Below, in pieces: positions 14,070 to 36,371 of a DNA stretch of 64,000 bases. Under the pieces are notes generated by a model. It was not told the DNA's origin. It did no database searches and saw only the letters and a list, made by a program, of their open reading frames with translations. The stretch covers positions 1 through 64,000 of the IMG/VR virus record IMGVR_UViG_3300049489_001303; one strand, given 5' to 3'. A program made the position numbers and the translations under genes. Every line of letters begins with the position of its first letter. Position 1 is the first letter of the stretch. Source of the DNA: a virus.

Positions 14070-16612
14070 GCCAATCCTCACACACGTCTTCCAGGCTCGG
14101 GCGATCTCCGTCGGGAGATATGCGAGAGCACCCCTCCTCTTTGCAGGTCGCGCATGACCTTTCTGGAGCTTCCGCAATGTTCTGCGTGGGCTCAGGGCCG
14201 TGCATCAGGTAGTGGATTAAATCTGCCATCTCATCGAACGTGCCGGGCGGTTGGGGTTTGCTTTCCCACTTCTCAGTGACAACCATGCGCCCGCAACCCG
14301 CGCAGTAGTAGTTGATCAGGTGCCACCTGTACTTACAAGTGCATACTTCAAACGCCATGTGCATGCTCCTCAATGGGACCGTCGTACGTCCCCACCGCCT
14401 TCGTGTTCCCGATGCCAATGCCGGGATTTTCCGACAAGCAGTACTCCCGTGGCTTGCGCCCCAGATATACAGCCTCGAACTCCTCAAGGGAGCACCAGAG
14501 GTCGTAGACCGAGCCCCCTGTCATATTCACTCTGAGAAGATCTCTCGGCTCACCTACGTCTCTGGGGCCCAGCCTGAAGGTGGCCATTCTGTGTTCATAG
14601 GCCTCAACTTTATCTAGGTCTATAGTGATTAGGCGGTTTTCTGAGGTGCACCTTCCGTCCGGGTAGTACTTGAATTTGTGGGGTCTCATTGTTTCTCCTC
14701 CAGAATCTTCAACTCATCTTCCCCATTGAAGACGCGGTCGATGTCTTCCTCGATACCCTCGGGCATCTTGAGACCAAAGCGTTTGCTGATCTTCTCCAAG
14801 GCTTCGTTGAAGCCTTTGCGGTCTTTGTATGTCATACTTCTTCTCCCTTCCAGTTAGTGGGCCTTCCGCCCTCCACCATTCTGCAGCCGAAGCACTGGTC
14901 TGTGAAGAAATCCGCAGCCTTGCTGCCGCAAGTACCACAGTGGTCGTGGCACTTGGGTATCAGTGCCTTCTCCAAGTCCCTGGTCATGAACATGCGTCCC
15001 CCGATCTCAATGCCAACGGTGCCGACGATTTCGAGGGGTTGGATTTGGCCGGTGTTATATTGAATCAGGATTCTCATTGTTTCTTCTCCAATAACAGAGC
15101 TTTAACCAAGTCATTTACTGGGAAGCGTGTGTGCTTGTCCACGGCTTCATAGTAATACGGTGACACCAATATCTCACACTCCCGCAACTCCTTCTGTGCC
15201 GCTTTGTGGCGTGCTATCAGGTCGTCTGGGATTTCCACTGCGTAGGTGTCAAACAGCACTTGGTGGCTCCACCTGTTCGATGTCTCAATGTTGTAGTGTG
15301 CAACAGACTTGTGGTCCTCTCGGTCTATCTCAGCTTTCATTGTTGCTCCGGGCGCATGTACCTGCGCCATTGGTCAGGGCACATCGAGGTGTTGAAATAT
15401 GTGTATGGTTCCACCGTCACACAACGCTTCTTCTTGACGGCTTTCTGGAAGTCTTTCGGCATTGCGTCCGCTTCTTCCAGGGTCAGGTAATAAGATTCAC
15501 CGGAGGTTACTCGGTCTATTACGCCGTGGTGTCGTTCCAACCATTTAGATAGTTTCATAGTGGCTCCTCTACTGCGTACTCATCGCACACAAATTCCAGT
15601 ACGTCGTGCGCTGGGCGGTGAACTGGAAACATTATCTTACCCGTGGATATGTAATGAGTCCGCGCTGGGTAGTGGCGAATTTCGTTGTGCCCTTTAAGGC
15701 ACTTTCGATTGTCACAACACGCAATGCTGAGTAGCAGCGCTGCGAGCAGGATGAGGCGTGTCATTTGTGTTCCTCCCCTCACGGACACAGCTTGTTAAAC
15801 AGCTCTGTCATTTTAACATTTAGGGCTTCATGCTCTGCGAGCTTACGGGTAGTGTAGGACGTATTATGAAACGCTTCGATTTCAGGGTGCAGCTCCGCTA
15901 CTCGTAGATAATCCTTTAAAGAATCTATACGCATACGCAGCATGCCCAAGATATTGTCTACGTCTTCGAAGCTCAGGTCGATCATCTATACTCCTCCTCA
16001 AGATGCACACCATGCGTGAGCTCAAGCTCGATAAGATGCTTCCACGCCTTATCCAACGCCTCCCTCTCGGCCTCAGTATACTGACCGTGCTTGATCTCCA
16101 TTCGGAAATACTGATTCATGTAGAACAGGCACGCATACGCCTGGTCAGCTTTCAAGCGCCGGATCTCCTGTAACGTGTCACGGTGCTGGCGGCGTTGGGT
16201 CAGCACTTTCTCTCCTCTGATTACCGCGATGACGACCAGGGTCATGGCAATGAGAGTGAGCCCCAGGGTGATCGCCATCTTTATGGCGAAGATTATTACG
16301 TCGGTGTAGTCAATCATTGTTCTTTCTCCTTCTGACGCTCTTCCAGCGTCTGCTCTATCTTGCGGGATATAACCACGGGAGCTGTATACCCGCCGGCCCA
16401 CCACGCATGCTCCTTGTCATCGAGAGCAATGCACCAGTCGGGTCTTCCAGTCCGTACACCCTCCCAGAGTCTTTCCTCTCCACCAATACGTCTGTATCCA
16501 AACCTACCGCACTCATCCGCTATCGGGTGCTGTGCTCGGAGGTAGAAATGACAGCCGATACAGGCTTTCGGTGCGGGGAACCAAACGGCTACACGTTCTA
16601 CGAAGCCTTTGC

Positions 16613-26500: not shown

Positions 26501-26817
26501 TGTCGTCGGGATCTTCCATCCCCAACGCTGCGGCGAGGAGATCTACGCTGGATAATTTGTTGATGTCTTTGGGGTCGTCCGCGGCCACAAACACTTCACG
26601 GTCAGTGGTCAGCTCAACGGATACTTGCACTCTGTAAATGGGCATGGATTACTCCTTTGTTTGTTGTGTGCAAACGTATACCAAGTTTCAGTGCTTTTGT
26701 CTGTGCGTGAAAAGGTAGATGATGCCCACAACGATCCAGATGCTTGCCATTGCAAGCCACACACCGCCAAGAGCTATCGTCGCTAACGTTTTCTTCATTG
26801 TTGTTATCTCCCTTCGG

Positions 26818-26955
26818 GGACCAAGGCTCGATTCGAACGAGCAACCTCATGTGTTCCCGCCGCCCAACGTGTCCACAACGTCGCGTTGAGCATCTCTTTC
26901 ACAGGAGGCGTAGGGTTATGAGTCCTATCGTGTCTGCCAATTCCACCACTTGGTC
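26818..26955 (-). tRNA. Atypical tRNA-like gene, CAT anticodon, ~67-nt variable arm
   Basis: Acceptor GACCAAG/CTTGGTC, D-arm GTG-GAATTGGCAGA-CAC, anticodon arm TAGGA-CTCATAA-CCCTA, T-arm GCTCG-TTCGAAT-CGAGC; no encoded CCA. Confidence 0.7.
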
Positions 26956-27071
26956 TAAAAGAAAATGCCCCGAATAAGCGGCCACGCTCGGGACAACACG
27001 TGTCGGTTTGGGCGACGTTCAACAGTACTTGTGTTAGTGTCGCTAATACAGAACTACTGACCGGCCGCTTG

Positions 27072-27155
27072 TGCAGGAAGAGAGACTCGAACTCTCACGC
27101 CCCGAGGGGCACAGGATTTTAATTCCCGGGCGTCTACCAATTCCACCATTCCTGC
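27072..27155 (-). tRNA. trnL: tRNA-Leu(TAA)
   Basis: GCAGGAA/TTCCTGC acceptor + A73, Leu-type D loop GGAATTGGTAGA, CGGGA-ATTAAAA-TCCTG, variable arm GCCCC-TC-GGGGC, GAGAG-TTCGAGT-CTCTC. Confidence 0.92.
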
Positions 27156-27159
27156 ATGT

Positions 27160-27540
27160 GGGCCTCTCACCCACTTGGAGATTTGAGACGTGTCTCTACA
27201 CGCCTGGTTGATAGAGGACAACCAGGAAGCCCTTAACGTCCCACCAACAGCTCGTCAGCTGCTGTCACGTCCTGCGTGCCCGCTTTGCACATGCACTTTC
27301 ATGCAGAGGTGTGGGGGGATCTATTGGTAAATTCGCACATTGCTGAATGCTCCGGTTAAGCCCGGCACAAGCGCCTCCTGAAGGTGGCAACGGGTCCTGA
27401 GAGTGTCCGTGGCCTTCTTCAGGGGCGCGGTGCGTGGTCTTAACTGGATCATTATCTCCCAACGCCCTTACCCCGTCAACTGCGTTTCGCAGTCCAGGTG
27501 TTATTCAACACCAACTCCAATGTGCGGTGTTGTGGGATAT
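27160..27540. ncRNA. Putative structured non-coding RNA, family unknown
   Basis: ~380 nt without a credible ORF, containing nested inverted repeats (27334-27342/27518-27526; long hairpin 27346-27453; hairpins 27203-27226, 27479-27493, 27497-27512). Confidence 0.45.
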
Positions 27541-30500
27541 CAGATCACAGACTTAAGCATGTGCAACCGGATACTGAGCACATCCAGATGCCCATTCATT
27601 TCTTTGAGCTGAGAGAACATTCCCAGTTCGCTGTCATTGAGCTGCGCACCTTGGGCCACACGCTCAACGAACACGGCACACAGGTTGCCACAGAGCCCTT
27701 GGGATTTGCCTGTCAGCTCGTAACACGCCTGCACGTTGTTAAATTCCGAGTGCGTGGGTGCAGTCTCCTCCATCGGTGGGAACGCCGGCTCCGGCGGTCC
27801 AACTACGATCTGTGCTGCTTTTCTCCACCCAACGGGCCGGCCCTTTTTCTTTCCTGCTTCTTTCATTCATTCTCCTCTTCGTTGTTGCTCTCCCACTCGT
27901 TGCGGAAAGCTTGTGTTGTCTTGACGATACACTCTTCAGCTGTGATCAGCGCTGCCCCACCCCCAAACGCCCCAGAGAGGTTACGGGAACAATAATCTGC
28001 CCAGGTCATGATGAAACTCGACCCCGGGCGGAAGCGTTTGAGGAACGCCTGCATGAAGATCCTCACGTGGTCGAGGTTAAATTCTTCCTCGGCGTAAATG
28101 AACACTTCATCACCTGTATAGTCCCAATTGAACGCGGGCCATGTATCCGGGTCAGAGATCTTTTCTGTGATGCCTTGGCGCCCGAGGAGCTCGACTATTT
28201 CCTCATCGTCTATGGTGTCAAGCTCCAACGTGTTAGTTATCCACCCAAGCTCGTCGGGGGTGACATCTTTAAAGCATTCACAGAAGGAAGAGTAGTTGTT
28301 ACTCATTGTGAGACCCTGTAAGTGTACTGATGGCTTCACACAGCTTCTCCGCCTCTTCGACCGTGTCGAACTCCCCTACAGAAAAGGGCAGGTCTACATC
28401 CTCATACAGATCCTCCTCTTCGTCGATCTCCTCGATGTGCACCCATACTTTGAATTTGCTGGTCATTCTTCTTCCTCCTCGGGGTCATTCTCGCCGGCGG
28501 CACTCTTGAACTCAGTACCGAATGCTCGGCACAGCTCCTCCACCACTTCGTCCTGTACCTTGTATTCGTTATTCTCCGCCTTGTGCAGATTGCGCCAGTC
28601 CAGTGTTGTGCGGCACCTCCCAGCGTCGATCTGCGCACAGACGCGCCGATCCACTGCCCTCTTGTACTTGTCGAGGAGATCTTCAATCTTCCGCTGTTTC
28701 AATGTGTGTGGCATCACTCCTCCTCTCCATCCTCCTCTACAGGAAGGCAGCTGATCAGCTTGTATTGGTCAACCCATTTTTTGTCACAGGCTGTGCAGCT
28801 GACCTCCTGCTCAGCATAAATTCCGTCCACCACCACTTCATCACCTTCTACACTGTCCTCCCCGCAGTAGGGACAAACGTAGCCTTTGGTAAGGTGTTCC
28901 TGCTTATGTTTCATAGAAGCCTCCTTTGTTGTATGAGTTTCATACTCGCGGCAACCCCAGCTGGTCCCACACGTCGTCGGAGATGAAGCACACACGCTTC
29001 TTCAGCACTGCGGCTTCCATCTCGGGTTGCATCCCCATGCGGGGAATCACTTCTTCTTTGAGAACGCACCACCCACCGGTGCGGTAGTCCTGGTCGTTCT
29101 CCCGAACACTGATCATGATGATGCCCATCTGCATGTAGCCCTTGCACTTGTCGCAGGGCTCCATGGACACCACCGCACGCCGCGGCGCCTCAGCATCCTT
29201 CTTGAGTCGGCCCATGAGAGCGATCTCGTTGGTGTCTCCACCGCACAGGTAGCACTGTCCCAAACAGGGATTGAGGCCGTGCTTCTCTGAGAGGCGGATT
29301 GAGGGTTCTGCTTTTTTTCTGCCCATTATTCAGTCTTCCTTCCATGGGTGCCAATTGTTTTTGGATGTCATCACCCGGGATAAGTCCCAGGAGTCCTGGA
29401 AAGTCAGGTGGCCCCTGAACTCCCCACCACACACATTTTCATTTTGAATTTCTGGAGCCAGCGCCCGCATCTCATCCTCCAGCGAGTCACTGAGCAGACA
29501 TTTGTCGCACAGGACTTCCCCCCGGAAGGTTGTCAGCAGCTTGTTGCACTCTCCCTGCCGCATGGTTTTCGGCGCTGTCCAGTGACAGCAGGTGCAGTGT
29601 CTAGGCCGTGGCTTTTTCGGTTTTGGCATCGCCCGAAATCTCTCTCAGATCTGCCAGTGCGTCTATATCCATGGTCTGTGATGGTTTCATCTTCTCCACC
29701 ACCCACTGGAGGTCTTTGGTGGGAACGTACACGCTTCGATCGCGTATCGTCAGCACATAGCCGGCGGCGGGTGCCGTGGCTGTCATGAAGGCACCTGGAG
29801 ACACCTCATTGGAGATCTTGGCACCCTTCTTAACCCTTTTGATTGTCAATTTCATCGAGCAGTCCTTTCTTCTGTAGTTCTTCCCGGAGGGCCTCCATGA
29901 TAAGCCCCCTGGCACCACCCTCCAAGCTATCAAAGAGCGCATGGGCCTCTTTGAGAAGCGGGGTGTTCATGTAGTCCATCAAGCGCATGTTAGCCTCAGC
30001 GACAACTTCAATGGCACCTATGTCGCGGCTCACGTCTTGCCCGTAATGCATAACCGTCCCTCGTGTGGAGCCGCTAAAGAGGACTCCTGTCTTACAAAAT
30101 CTTCTACCTTAAGCCCGTCATCGTCTCCCATAAAGCAGGTGGGGCACATGTACATCTTCTTGTACTTGATCATCGGCTCTCCAATGTCTTTGCGGACCTT
30201 ACCATTAAGGTCGTACACAGTATTGGAGGTGGCACCACAACGGGCGCACACGGCGTTAACTGGCACACCGTCGTTAAATGACTTCCGGTGCTTGTCCAGC
30301 CTCTGCCTGCAAGCGGTACAGCGCCGCAGAACAACTGTCCTTTTAATGAACTCTTCTTCAGGGAACTCTTCTTGGCAACAGATACACTTTATGCCCACGC
30401 TACACCCACATGTTCTTTAAATTCCGCGCATGAGGGGCACAGCATGTATTTGTGGTGGCCTATCTGGAATTCTTCTCCGCACTCAGCACAAGTGACCATG

Positions 30501-34331: not shown

Positions 34332-36371
34332 TCATACAGACAAATTGTCTTTGAAATTGATAGCCATGGCTCCGTCGATAACCTTCAGGGCCATATCCGT
34401 TTTAGACACGGGAGCACAAATGTCCATGGTGCTGTCAGAGCATAGGGGGCACATGTCCGGGGTGAAATTAACGTCCTTTTCAGGGGTGTCGGTGGTGCCC
34501 ATGTTATCCCCGATAACTTGTGACACCGAGGGTATCTCTATGGTTGCCATGAGGGTATCCAGCCAATCTGAGTTGGGCAGATCAGGGTCTGTGTAGCCGG
34601 GAGGTGTCTGTGGCGGATACACCAGCACACCGCTGTTCATATCCTTGTCTTTCCAGATGTCCCCAAAGTCCTCTTTCGATACAACGTCGCTGAAGCTCTG
34701 GAAGGAGTCTTTGGACAACCCGAACAACCATCCCACCGACTCAACGACCTTCTTCACATCAGGGCTGCGCCCACCAGCCAGGAACACCAGCCCGGTGACA
34801 TACTCGTCGCCACGGTGGAAGGGGGGCGCTTTTGGAACGTTGGGGTCCAGCATGTTTACGCAGAGGTCATTCAGGAAGTAGTTGTTACCTCCCATGCCGT
34901 AGAAGCCATGTGTGTAGATGCCAGCCTTCGGGGGTTGCAGGAGGTACAGTAGACGCTCTACCTCACTCACCACTCGGTTGCCGATGCCTACGTATTTGTT
35001 GATCTCATCCTCGATGAATACCAGAAGCTCTTCCAGGGCCTTAGAGGACCCGGCTATCCGCGACGCAAAGAGGGCCATGAGGGCCATGATATCTTCGAGT
35101 ACTCTGGCTACTGGTGGTGCCATCTCCCGCAAGCTTCCTGTGCGGTACCAGTCGGGGCGGTGGCTGCTCGGGACAGTTACACCCATGGTGACTCGTGCCA
35201 CGTTGGATATATCCTGGTAGGGCATTATTCCGGGGACCCCTGAGTATTCACCATCGCGAGCATCTTCGGCCTGTTTGACAAGGGCGTTGACATCATCATC
35301 GGGCCCGAACCCCTGCAGCTGCCACGCAACGGCGTAGTAGTACACGTCGCTCTCCTCGACGTCGGAGGCAATATAGTCCTCATAGGAGATCTTGGTGACA
35401 TTGTACTTACCCTCGTGGATCACCTCAATATCCCCCATGGTGCTCTTCTTACCCTTGGTCAGGATCTCTCCTCCATCGCTGAACAGCTCTGAAACGCTGC
35501 GGGCGGTAGACATACGCAGGGAGTTCTTACCGCGGATAACGGCATAGCGCACAGGTCGGAAACTGGCTCCCCCCAGATCCGTAAGGGATGTGATGGGGAA
35601 CTTGGGGGGATCCCAGGTGAGGGTGACTCGGCAGGATCCGGACTGCCCACTCTTATCCGTGAACAGAGCCGTGCCCCGAGTGACCTTCCCCATGGCTATG
35701 GCCCTTAGATTCAGGGGCTTGGGCCATTTCACGTAGTTGGGGCTGTTGAAGAATATGCGGAAACGCATGAGATCTTCTATCAGATCCAGTATGTTGAGGT
35801 TGGTACCCAACACCACCACAAACCCGGCGACGTAGTCACGTTCGCTGTTGAACTGTGGCCTGTTGAAGTCACCCGCGTCGTACAGAGAGTTTATAACGGC
35901 GTTGACGAAGCCGGCGTTGCCGCCGCTGTAACGGTTGCTTGCGGCGATACGTGCTATCGTCTCTGGGTCGTTATTCTGGGTGGGGGCATCTGAGAATAGC
36001 CTGGAACTGTTATCCCCGTAGGCCGGGTTCTTGAGCACCCCTGTCAGCACAGGTACTTTGGGTATACCCCAGTCAGGTGTGAGGTCGCCCTGTCCGTGGA
36101 AGGTGTGAACGATCCTCTTCTGGATAGGGACGTGCAGCATGTAGCCACCAGCCCCGTCCAGAAGACTCTTCAGAGTGTCCTCAATCTCTTTGATCAGAGC
36201 CTCCAGAGTAGCAGCGATGGGATCATTGATAAGACGCGCCGCTGCCAGAGCTATCTGGGCGGCTTTGAGGATCACGTCTAGTACCAGCCGAGTGGTAGCG
36301 ATGAGCTTCTCGATAGGCTCTACAGGGATATCAGGGGATACTATCTCCAGCCTTTGCCATTTATCAGCCAT
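34332..36371 (-). CDS. Large hypothetical virion (baseplate/tail-associated?) protein
   Basis: 679-aa ORF with two internally similar helical/GGN segments flanking an FN3-like region (LTWDPP...YYYAVAW). Confidence 0.5.
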   Translation of the reverse strand: MADKWQRLEIVSPDIPVEPIEKLIATTRLVLDVILKAAQIALAAARLINDPIAATLEALIKEIEDTLKSLLDGAGGYMLHVPIQKRIVHTFHGQGDLTPDWGIPKVPVLTGVLKNPAYGDNSSRLFSDAPTQNNDPETIARIAASNRYSGGNAGFVNAVINSLYDAGDFNRPQFNSERDYVAGFVVVLGTNLNILDLIEDLMRFRIFFNSPNYVKWPKPLNLRAIAMGKVTRGTALFTDKSGQSGSCRVTLTWDPPKFPITSLTDLGGASFRPVRYAVIRGKNSLRMSTARSVSELFSDGGEILTKGKKSTMGDIEVIHEGKYNVTKISYEDYIASDVEESDVYYYAVAWQLQGFGPDDDVNALVKQAEDARDGEYSGVPGIMPYQDISNVARVTMGVTVPSSHRPDWYRTGSLREMAPPVARVLEDIMALMALFASRIAGSSKALEELLVFIEDEINKYVGIGNRVVSEVERLLYLLQPPKAGIYTHGFYGMGGNNYFLNDLCVNMLDPNVPKAPPFHRGDEYVTGLVFLAGGRSPDVKKVVESVGWLFGLSKDSFQSFSDVVSKEDFGDIWKDKDMNSGVLVYPPQTPPGYTDPDLPNSDWLDTLMATIEIPSVSQVIGDNMGTTDTPEKDVNFTPDMCPLCSDSTMDICAPVSKTDMALKVIDGAMAINFKDNLSV

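What the first reader, a model, noticed from the sequence alone, without database searches (positions are those of the whole stretch)
26818..26955. Chimeric giant tRNA: CAU anticodon, Leu-type D-arm, ~67-nt structured variable arm, C discriminator
Seen: perfect 7-bp acceptor stem and T-arm; D-arm nearly identical to the neighbouring tRNA-Leu; Met/Ile2-type loop CTCATAA. The variable region folds as an extended hairpin (GCCTC/GAGGT, TGTG/CACA, purine-rich internal loop, GCTCAACG/CGTTGGGC); total ~138 nt. Known: Met/Ile2 tRNAs are class I with short variable loops and A73, and even tRNA-Sec arms are far shorter. Inference: intact stems argue for selection. It may be a novel tRNA-like RNA (anticodon-nuclease decoy, ribosome or synthetase modulator, aptamer-carrying tRNA) or a tRNA with a non-canonical intron.
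Basis: partly seen in the sequence, partly recalled or inferred. Interest (0 to 1): 0.82.

Follow-up and report, generated by a model that had tools for sequence, protein, structure and literature searches.

The report
Orphan giant tRNA-shaped phage gene
A 170-kb uncultured phage carries, beside a normal leucine tRNA, a 138-base gene that folds like a complete tRNA with a 64-base extra arm; no relative has it and nothing shows it is expressed, so it stays an unexplained one-off.

Summary
On the minus strand at 26955-26818 lies a complete tRNA frame:
- a 7-bp Watson-Crick acceptor stem;
- a leucine-type class II D arm;
- the anticodon loop CTCATAA (anticodon CAU);
- a canonical T arm;
- discriminator C73;
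- a 64-nt two-helix hairpin where the variable arm should be.

ARAGORN and Rfam miss the gene. When the arm is shortened in silico, ARAGORN calls tRNA-Met(cat).

The gene sits 115 nt downstream of tRNA-Leu(UAA), behind a sigma-70-like promoter, and 20 nt upstream of a 36-aa ORF.

I found no homologue in any collection searched. The nearest relative phage has a different, single tRNA at the same position, and more distant relatives have none there.

My best reading (confidence 0.4) is a lineage-specific RNA derived from tRNA-Leu. The tRNA body would supply processing and stability, and the arm would be the working part. It is probably not an efficient decoder. A recent non-functional relic (0.3) and a true Met/Ile decoder (0.2) remain open. 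An intron is unlikely.

This scan has noted oversized phage tRNA-like genes on other DNA, but not this one.

The parts
26818..26955 (-). Whole 138-nt tRNA-shaped gene (G1 at 26955, discriminator C73 at 26818)
   Evidence: Sequence. The MFE and centroid fold is a cloverleaf. The custom scanner finds it. ARAGORN calls tRNA-Met(cat) once the arm is trimmed.
26949..26955 (-). Acceptor stem, 5' strand GACCAAG. It pairs with 26819-26825 (CTTGGTC), 7 of 7 Watson-Crick pairs.
26930..26946 (-). Class II (Leu-type) D arm: 3-bp stem GTG/CAC and 11-nt loop with A14, A15, G18 and G19
   Evidence: Matches the neighbouring tRNA-Leu at 16 of 17 positions. The best database matches of the 5' half are phage tRNA-Leu genes.
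26911..26927 (-). Anticodon arm: stem TAGGA/CCCTA (four Watson-Crick pairs plus A31·C39) and loop CTCATAA. The anticodon CAT is at 26920-26918. The arm is preceded by a 2-nt connector GA (26929-26928).
   Evidence: ARAGORN drawing
26845..26908 (-). 64-nt variable-arm rod. Lower helix 26908-26900 with 26853-26845 (8 Watson-Crick pairs around one C·U mismatch). Symmetric purine-rich 7x7 internal loop AAAGAGA (26899-26893) / GCGGGAA (26860-26854). Upper 9-bp helix 26892-26884 with 26869-26861 (two G·U pairs). 14-nt apical loop 26883-26870.
   Evidence: -25.1 kcal/mol, z = -2.4. The opposite strand gives -22.6 kcal/mol. No other copy exists in the genome.
26826..26842 (-). T arm GCTCG-TTCGAAT-CGAGC, with a canonical T-loop
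26956..27070 (-). 115-nt spacer between tRNA-Leu and the giant gene
   Evidence: It folds into hairpins in the long-range fold.
27071..27155 (-). Canonical tRNA-Leu(UAA), the only tRNA that standard tools find in the 170-kb genome
   Evidence: ARAGORN; Rfam RF00005, 47.1 bits
27451..27479 (-). Sigma-70-like promoter TTGACG-17-GATAAT at the head of the non-coding leader. It is the likely start of the transcript that carries both tRNA genes.
   Evidence: 10 of 12 matches. The adjacent hairpin motif is shared with the relative L013. No terminator-like site lies between it and the downstream genes.
26688..26798 (-). 36-aa hydrophobic ORF. It starts 20 nt after the giant gene and its Shine-Dalgarno sequence GGGAG lies just 3' of the acceptor stem.

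Best explanation
This is a lineage-specific, tRNA-derived RNA gene. It is a class II (leucine-type) tRNA frame whose variable arm has grown into a 64-nt two-helix rod, and whose anticodon (CAU), position 39 and discriminator (C73) no longer match any one bacterial amino-acid identity.

It is most likely transcribed together with tRNA-Leu(UAA) from the promoter-like site at 27479-27451. It would then be cut out by the host's tRNA-processing enzymes: RNase P at G1, then 3' trimming and CCA addition.

The product would be a stable 138-nt tRNA-shaped RNA. The tRNA body would give it processing, stability and tRNA-like surfaces. The rod, with its symmetric purine-rich internal loop, would be the functional payload, binding a protein or an RNA. 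On this reading it acts as a tRNA look-alike, not as an efficient decoder.

Shown: the anatomy, the genomic setting and the absence of homologues. Inferred: transcription, processing, stability and any binding partner.
For: - The tRNA frame is complete and regular.
- The gene lies 115 nt from a real tRNA. A promoter-like site lies upstream and no terminator intervenes.
- The rod is not a decayed palindrome. Its helices are near-perfect, while the 7x7 internal loop is a single block with almost no complementarity between its two strands (sequence).
- Two G·U pairs make the rod 2.5 kcal/mol more stable on the tRNA strand.
- The identity features disagree with one another. The D arm is Leu-type. 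The anticodon is CAU. The discriminator is C73, which in bacteria is used only by tRNA-His (established knowledge). This argues against tuning for aminoacylation.
- Engineered tRNAs with an aptamer placed in the variable loop kept only marginal tRNA activity (PMC7590224).
- There is precedent for phage tRNA clusters that encode stable tRNA-like RNAs of about this size with unknown function: T4 RNAC and RNAD (PMC9697503; their sizes of about 139 and 119 nt are from my own knowledge).
Against: - There is no homologue, so there is no conservation or covariation.
- The nearest relative has a different tRNA at the same position, and other relatives have none in the stretches I could read.
- There is no expression evidence.
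- No known RNA motif or family matches the rod.
- The fold of the whole molecule is not more stable than shuffles (z = -1.2), and the arm only moderately so (z = -2.4).
- The intact canonical anticodon loop would not be needed by a pure scaffold RNA.
Confidence: 0.4

Rival explanations
1. It is a recent, non-functional relic. A duplicated or captured tRNA-Leu-like gene suffered an expansion or insertion in its variable arm and point changes (anticodon, position 39, discriminator), and has not yet had time to decay further.
For: - It is a singleton. It is absent from every relative and every collection searched.
- All three deviations from a tRNA-Leu(CAA)-like parent could be single transitions or transversions that damage identity: CAA to CAU, U39 to C giving A31·C39, and A73 to C (comparison with the tRNA-Leu(CAA) in L036).
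- Standard tRNA finders reject it.
Against: - All 15 pairs of the acceptor, D and T stems are Watson-Crick, and 18 pairs in the arm are intact.
- The mismatches in the arm are concentrated in one symmetric block and are not scattered.
- The phage genome is densely packed.
- The acceptor and T stems differ completely from the neighbouring tRNA-Leu yet still pair perfectly, so it is not a fresh local duplicate.
Confidence: 0.3
2. It is a working decoder tRNA, the largest natural one. It would be charged with Met by MetRS, which reads the CAU anticodon. Alternatively, after lysidine formation at C34, it would be charged with Ile and read AUA. The long arm would project into solvent, as class II arms do.
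For: - The anticodon loop is canonical: C32, U33, CAU, A37, A38.
- The elbow is intact: G18, G19, a canonical T-loop, and candidates for the A15-U48 pair.
- ARAGORN calls tRNA-Met once the arm is trimmed.
- AUA makes up 19.7% of Ile codons (398 codons) in the phage's long ORFs. The companion tRNA, Leu(UAA), also reads an A-ending codon.
- A canonical class II tRNA with a CAU anticodon exists in a metagenomic tRNA array (L026).
Against: - C73 replaces the A73 used by bacterial Met, Ile and Leu tRNAs (established knowledge).
- There is an A31·C39 mismatch and a 2-nt connector.
- The 68-nt variable region is about three times longer than in any known active tRNA.
- V-loop aptamer fusions were only marginally active (PMC7590224).
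- The gene is not conserved in relatives.
Confidence: 0.2
3. It is an RNA-processing or punctuation element. The tRNA shape would attract RNase P, and the long rod with its internal loop would attract RNase III. Together they would cut the leader-tRNA transcript away from the downstream mRNA and set that mRNA's 5' end and stability.
For: - The gene is embedded in a transcript with no terminator.
- The Shine-Dalgarno sequence of the next ORF begins just 3' of the acceptor stem.
- The rod, roughly 25 stacked pairs with a central internal loop, resembles phage RNase III sites in outline (my own knowledge of the T7 R1.1 type; not tested).
Against: - A plain tRNA or a simple hairpin would do the same job.
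- The nearest relative manages with one small tRNA at this position.
- Nothing was tested directly.
Confidence: 0.07
4. It is a tRNA gene interrupted by an intron in the variable region, which is spliced out to give a normal-sized tRNA.
For: - Removing the 64-nt hairpin leaves a 4-nt variable loop (CGTT).
- ARAGORN in intron mode reports a gene with the same ends.
Against: - ARAGORN's intron model is a forced 'His(gtg)' with a badly mismatched anticodon stem.
- No group I or other ribozyme family matches, even at E <= 10.
- 64 nt is far too short for a group I intron.
- The insert is not in the anticodon loop.
- The 7x7 symmetric loop is not a bulge-helix-bulge. The companion tRNA-Leu is bacterial in type by its database matches, and bacteria have no known tRNA-splicing endonuclease.
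- The D arm is the class II type that accompanies a long arm.
Confidence: 0.03

Closest known systems
Bacterial class II tRNAs (tRNA-Leu, also Ser, Tyr and Sec)
   Same: - A 3-bp D stem with an 11-nt loop, as in tRNA-Leu.
- A helical arm between the anticodon and T arms, flanked by 2 unpaired bases on each side.
- Canonical acceptor and T arms.
- The 5' half is most similar to phage tRNA-Leu genes.
   Different: - The variable region is 68 nt. PMC7609411 says only that class II arms exceed 10 nt, and PMC7590224 calls tRNA-Sec the largest canonical tRNA. That known arms reach only about 25 nt is my own knowledge.
- The anticodon is CAU, not a Leu, Ser or Tyr anticodon.
- The discriminator is C73.
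- There is an A31·C39 mismatch.
- Rfam RF00005 and ARAGORN do not call it.
Phage T4 RNAC and RNAD (species 1 and 2 RNAs), stable RNAs of unknown function encoded in the T4 tRNA cluster
   Same: - A phage RNA of roughly 120-140 nt encoded beside tRNA genes.
- tRNA-like features.
- Function unknown (PMC9697503; sizes from my own knowledge).
   Different: - There is no sequence similarity to any deposited phage.
- This element keeps a full anticodon arm with a canonical loop, and its extra RNA is confined to the variable-arm position.
- Expression is not shown here.
[quoted passage not shown]
   Same: A tRNA body carries a structured RNA module in the variable arm. In those constructs the module binds proteins or recruits a synthetase.
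   Different: - Those tRNAs are man-made. Most had short hairpin tips, and the V-Spinach fusions were only marginally active.
- Here the module is natural, 64 nt long and has no known ligand.
Phage tRNAs that escape or replace targets of host anticodon nucleases (PMC10264068; PMC11555353)
   Same: A phage-encoded tRNA-like gene that deviates in or near the anticodon stem-loop.
   Different: - Those are normal-sized, chargeable tRNAs.
- No nuclease that targets tRNA-Met or tRNA-Ile2 is tied to this unknown host.
- Nothing was tested here.
Oversized phage tRNA-like genes noted earlier in this scan, including Ile tRNAs whose extra arm displays a GAU loop
   Same: - A phage gene with a tRNA frame and an enlarged variable region that tRNA finders miss.
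- In one of those notes the anticodon loop is also of the Ile/CAU type (AI notes, unchecked).
   Different: - Those are 89-130 nt and mostly form conserved families.
- The arm here has no 7-nt GAU loop. Its tip is a 14-nt loop, and GAT occurs only inside the internal loop.
- No family was found for this one.

Membership tests
Canonical tRNA (Rfam RF00005) | 7-bp acceptor stem; 5-bp T stem with a T-loop of the TTCRANY type; D loop with A14, G18 and G19; U8 | tested here: met
   Sequence and fold. The custom scanner finds only this gene and tRNA-Leu in 170 kb, against 4 hits in 30 shuffles.
Canonical tRNA (Rfam RF00005) | 5-bp anticodon stem, 7-nt loop with U33 and a purine at 37, and one base between the D and anticodon stems | tested here: inconclusive
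   The loop CTCATAA is canonical. The stem has four Watson-Crick pairs plus A31·C39, and the connector is 2 nt.
Canonical tRNA (Rfam RF00005) | Variable region within the known range; recognised by the family model | tested here: not met
   The variable region is 68 nt. There is no RF00005 match even at E <= 10 on an 801-nt stretch. ARAGORN at default settings is silent.
Canonical tRNA (Rfam RF00005) | Aminoacylated and used by the ribosome | not testable with these tools
   This needs aminoacylation and translation assays.
tRNA-Met / tRNA-Ile2 (CAU) | CAU anticodon in the loop CUCAUAA | tested here: met
   ARAGORN calls tRNA-Met(cat) after trimming.
tRNA-Met / tRNA-Ile2 (CAU) | Class I body (4-bp D stem, 4-5-nt variable loop) and A73 | tested here: not met
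   The D arm is class II with a 3-bp stem, the arm is long and the discriminator is C73. The expected features are from established knowledge.
Bacterial tRNA-Leu | Leu-type D arm and class II architecture | tested here: met
   Matches the neighbouring tRNA-Leu at 16 of 17 positions. The 5' half is 84% identical to phage tRNA-Leu genes, at a weak E-value of about 1.
Bacterial tRNA-Leu | Leu anticodon and A73, the main LeuRS determinant | tested here: not met
   The anticodon is CAU and the discriminator is C73.
Intron-containing tRNA (group I, or archaeal bulge-helix-bulge) | A group I core, or two 3-nt bulges separated by a 4-bp helix at the exon-intron borders | tested here: not met
   No intron or ribozyme family matches at E <= 10. 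The insert is 64 nt with a symmetric 7x7 loop. ARAGORN's intron model is a poor forced fit.
tmRNA | A tRNA-like domain plus a tag-peptide reading frame and pseudoknots | tested here: not met
   ARAGORN with -m finds none in the genome. Rfam finds none.
T4 RNAC/RNAD-type stable tRNA-like RNAs | Encoded in a phage tRNA cluster; about 120-140 nt; tRNA-like ends | tested here: met
   It is 138 nt and lies 115 nt from tRNA-Leu, with a tRNA acceptor and T arm.
T4 RNAC/RNAD-type stable tRNA-like RNAs | Sequence homology to the T4 genes, and accumulation as a stable RNA | tested here: not met
   There is no similarity to any of 50,697 phage records beyond short tRNA segments. Accumulation as a stable RNA cannot be tested here.
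Phage Ile tRNAs with a second GAU anticodon-like arm (earlier notes of this scan) | The extra arm is a hairpin with a 7-nt loop displaying GAU | tested here: not met
   The apical loop is 14 nt (CGACGTTGTGGACA). GAT occurs only in the internal loop.

The most novel reading that the evidence does not exclude
It is a natural 'aptamer-tagged' tRNA. The 138-nt RNA would be processed, carry CCA and be aminoacylated or enter the ribosome, making it by far the largest active tRNA. Its 64-nt arm would be a docking module that recruits a phage or host protein to the tRNA.

One sub-case cannot be excluded. The arm tip contains UUGUGGA, which has the form of a tRNA-His anticodon loop, and the discriminator is C73, the bacterial tRNA-His discriminator. 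This recalls the engineered pseudo-anticodon tRNAs of PMC7590224. However, position -1 is A, not the G that HisRS needs, and the tip is not closed by a 5-bp stem.
Probability: 0.15. Interest if true: 0.85.

Novelty: new variant of a known kind. Interest (0 to 1): 0.45.

Why it matters
If this RNA is made and is stable, it would show how far the tRNA fold can be extended in nature: a 64-nt structured module in the variable arm, beside an intact anticodon arm. It would also add a clear case to the poorly understood group of phage tRNA-shaped RNAs, of which T4 RNAC and RNAD remain unexplained after 50 years. If it is charged and decodes, it would be a natural model for aptamer-tagged orthogonal tRNAs.

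The practical point holds either way. Standard tRNA finders miss such genes, so phage tRNA inventories are incomplete. If it is only a young relic, it has little importance.

Tried and rejected
**Homologue searches, all negative**
- The phage collection, by blastn and megablast.
- Two pattern scans of viral contigs.
- A pattern for a Leu-type D loop plus a CAU loop, run on metagenome contigs and on genome contigs. The 19 metagenome stretches held ordinary or otherwise aberrant tRNAs and chance matches, with no long-armed homologue. The 3 genome contigs matches were not tRNAs.

**Relatives of the phage**
- Neighbouring small proteins have no relatives.
- PolA and the conserved 154-aa protein found nothing in viral contigs.
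- The 679-aa and 154-aa proteins did lead to related contigs. None of these carries the gene.

**Other checks that led nowhere**
- Dispersed repeat: there is no second copy of the insert in the genome.
- Pairing between the anticodon loop and the arm tip: 6 pairs, but 23% of shuffled tips do as well. Rejected.
- Pairing of the arm tip with the upstream spacer: -14.6 kcal/mol, but 7-11% of controls do as well. Rejected.
- The 15-of-16 match to L012 is part of an unrelated hairpin there. It is chance.
- ORFs overlapping the element have no Pfam match.
- 5' tRNA halves followed by unrelated sequence in metagenome contigs have no matching 3' acceptor strand within 2.5 kb, so they are not evident intron cases.

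- The records behind L008 and L012 are not held, so they could not be searched whole.

Full report
**What is there.** The finding lies on the minus strand. Read 5' to 3' from 26955 to 26818, the 138 nt contain:
- a 7-bp all-Watson-Crick acceptor stem, GACCAAG/CTTGGTC;
- U8;
- a class II D arm: 3-bp stem GTG/CAC and an 11-nt loop with A14, A15, G18 and G19;
- a 2-nt connector, GA;
- an anticodon arm, TAGGA-CTCATAA-CCCTA, with four Watson-Crick pairs plus A31·C39;
- two unpaired bases, a 64-nt hairpin, then two more unpaired bases;
- a canonical T arm, GCTCG-TTCGAAT-CGAGC;
- discriminator C73, followed by CCCG.

RNAfold returns exactly this cloverleaf as both MFE and centroid.

The hairpin is a rod with four parts:
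- a lower helix of 8 Watson-Crick pairs around one C·U mismatch;
- a symmetric, purine-rich 7x7 internal loop (AAAGAGA / GCGGGAA);
- a 9-bp upper helix containing two G·U pairs;
- a 14-nt apical loop.

On its own the rod folds at -25.1 kcal/mol, z = -2.4. The opposite strand gives -22.6 kcal/mol.

**Is it more than chance?** Standard tools do not call it. ARAGORN by default and Rfam find only tRNA-Leu(UAA) at 27071-27155 in the window and in the whole 170-kb genome. A permissive Rfam scan of the 801 nt around the element gives no tRNA match for it.

The cause is the length of the arm. When I shortened the arm in silico in three ways, ARAGORN at default settings called tRNA-Met(cat) each time, with the same ends.

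I also wrote a scanner that requires a T arm, a 7-bp acceptor stem, U8 and a D-loop GG, over lengths of 70-260 nt. It finds just the two tRNA genes on both strands of the genome, against 4 hits in 30 dinucleotide shuffles.

Together with the Leu-type D arm (16 of 17 identical to the neighbour) and the canonical anticodon loop, this settles that the element derives from a tRNA.

**Setting.** The window is the first 64 kb of a 170,144-bp IMG/VR virus record, about 95% complete.
- It encodes a fused beta/beta' RNA polymerase and a family A DNA polymerase, and a reverse transcriptase.
- None of the ten proteins I tested matched a PHROG family.
- There is no nucleotide match to deposited phages.

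The element lies in a non-coding stretch of about 750 nt. Reading downstream on the minus strand, that stretch holds:
- a sigma-70-like promoter, TTGACG-17-GATAAT, at 27479-27451;
- a structured leader;
- tRNA-Leu(UAA);
- a 115-nt spacer;
- the giant gene.

Twenty nucleotides further on there is a 36-aa hydrophobic ORF with its own Shine-Dalgarno sequence. No terminator-like site was found, so co-transcription with the downstream genes is likely. That is an inference.

**Relatives.** The 679-aa protein at 34332-36371 has relatives at 25-47% identity.
- The closest large contig (a 185-kb JGI contig; L008 and L013) is syntenic through the gene just upstream of the non-coding stretch. It shares a short motif at the head of that stretch. 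At the corresponding position it has one class I tRNA of 70 nt with a 6-nt anticodon loop, and nothing like the giant gene.
- A second lineage (L009-L011, L038) and a third (L012, L033, L034) show no tRNA in the corresponding stretches.
- The flanking small proteins are orphans.

The gene is therefore specific to this lineage. Neither conservation nor covariation can be assessed.

**Wider searches.** I searched for a Leu-type D loop followed by a CAU anticodon loop.
- Viral contigs: no hit, with a fixed 9-nt gap in the pattern.
- Genome contigs, one genome for each of 185,579 species: three hits, none a tRNA.
- Metagenome contigs: 19 stretches.

The metagenome stretches include:
- one canonical class II tRNA with CAU, A73 and an encoded CCA, inside a tRNA array (L026);
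- two other tRNA-shaped genes of 97 and 102 nt with Leu-type D arms, which ARAGORN and Rfam miss (L015 and L018).

None of these is homologous to the element here.

In the phage collection, the 5' half of the element is most similar to ordinary phage tRNA-Leu genes, including a tRNA-Leu(CAA) whose anticodon arm reads GGA-CTCAAAA-TCC. Relative to such a parent, the giant gene differs by CAA to CAU, by U39 to C (which creates the A·C mismatch) and by A73 to C.

**What it most likely is.** The identity signals disagree.
- The body is Leu-type, but bacterial LeuRS depends on A73.
- The anticodon is CAU, the main MetRS determinant and the TilS substrate, but Met and Ile tRNAs are class I with A73.
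- C73 is the discriminator of bacterial tRNA-His only.

These identity rules are established knowledge and were not tested here.

The variable region is about three times longer than in any known active tRNA. Canonical tRNA-Sec is described as the largest tRNA structure, and V-loop aptamer fusions had only marginal activity (PMC7590224).

Against simple decay, every stem of the tRNA frame is perfect. The rod is also not a worn palindrome: its non-complementarity is confined to one symmetric purine-rich block between two near-perfect helices. That is the usual look of a protein- or RNA-binding internal loop.

My best reading (confidence 0.4) is a tRNA-scaffolded stable RNA. It would be excised by the tRNA-processing machinery, with the rod as the working part. 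This compares in kind with T4 RNAC and RNAD, whose functions are still unknown (PMC9697503).

**Rivals.**
- A young relic (0.3) cannot be excluded, because a recent event would look equally intact.
- A true decoder of AUG or AUA (0.2) gets some support. The anticodon loop is intact. AUA makes up 19.7% of Ile codons in the phage. The companion tRNA, Leu(UAA), also reads an A-ending codon.
- A processing element (0.07) is possible.
- An intron (0.03) is least likely.

**Comparison with earlier notes of this scan.** Oversized phage tRNA-like genes have been noted repeatedly on other DNA. Among them are Ile-type tRNAs whose extra arm shows a GAU loop (unchecked AI notes). I checked for that design and it is absent here. 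Those notes also supplied the comparison with T4 RNAC and RNAD.

**Verdict.**
- It is a new variant of a known kind.
- Interest is moderate (0.45), because it is a singleton with no evidence of expression or conservation.

Noticed in passing
L013:15759-15829 (+): At the same genomic position in the nearest relative phage there is a class I tRNA (Rfam 56 bits) with a 6-nt anticodon loop, CTTAAA. ARAGORN reports a 2-nt 'anticodon'. It could be an aberrant UAA-anticodon tRNA or an indel in the A run.
   Followed up: partly
L026:1775-1860 (-): A metagenomic tRNA array contains an otherwise canonical class II (Leu-shaped) tRNA with anticodon CAU, A73 and an encoded CCA (ARAGORN tRNA-Met of 89 nt; Rfam 53 bits). 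With this D-loop motif, the combination was not found in 185,579 species genomes.
   Followed up: partly
L018:2667-2768 (-) and L015:2085-2181 (-): Two further tRNA-shaped genes, of 102 and 97 nt, have Leu-type D arms and perfect acceptor and T arms. Their anticodon regions are abnormal, and about 27-32 nt lie before the T arm. ARAGORN and Rfam miss both. L018 lies in a tRNA cluster.
   Followed up: partly
window 27160-27540 (-): A structured non-coding leader of about 380 nt lies upstream of tRNA-Leu. At its head, a hairpin (CTGCGAAACGCAG) is followed by a sigma-70-like promoter at 27479-27451. The hairpin motif recurs at L013:15466-15497. The long fold of 26790-27560 has z = -2.9.
   Followed up: partly
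window 26688-26798 (-): An unannotated 36-aa hydrophobic ORF, probably a small membrane protein, starts 20 nt after the giant tRNA-like gene.
   Followed up: no
L012:14052-14700 (+): A more distant relative has about 650 nt without called genes. This stretch contains a long, near-perfect hairpin (about 14165-14285). No tRNA was detected there.
   Followed up: no
L014, L017, L021, L022, L027, L029, L030 (metagenome contigs): These contigs carry Leu-type 5' tRNA halves that end at CTCATAA and run into unrelated sequence. No matching 3' acceptor strand lies within 2.5 kb, and the four contigs scanned with Rfam (L014, L021, L022, L027) show no group I intron match. Their nature is unclear.
   Followed up: partly
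genome 65515-69900 (-), 85410-88571 (+), 95696-96844 (+): The phage encodes a fused beta/beta' multisubunit-type RNA polymerase (1461 aa), a family A DNA polymerase and a reverse transcriptase (RVT_1). None of the ten proteins tested matched a PHROG family.
   Followed up: no
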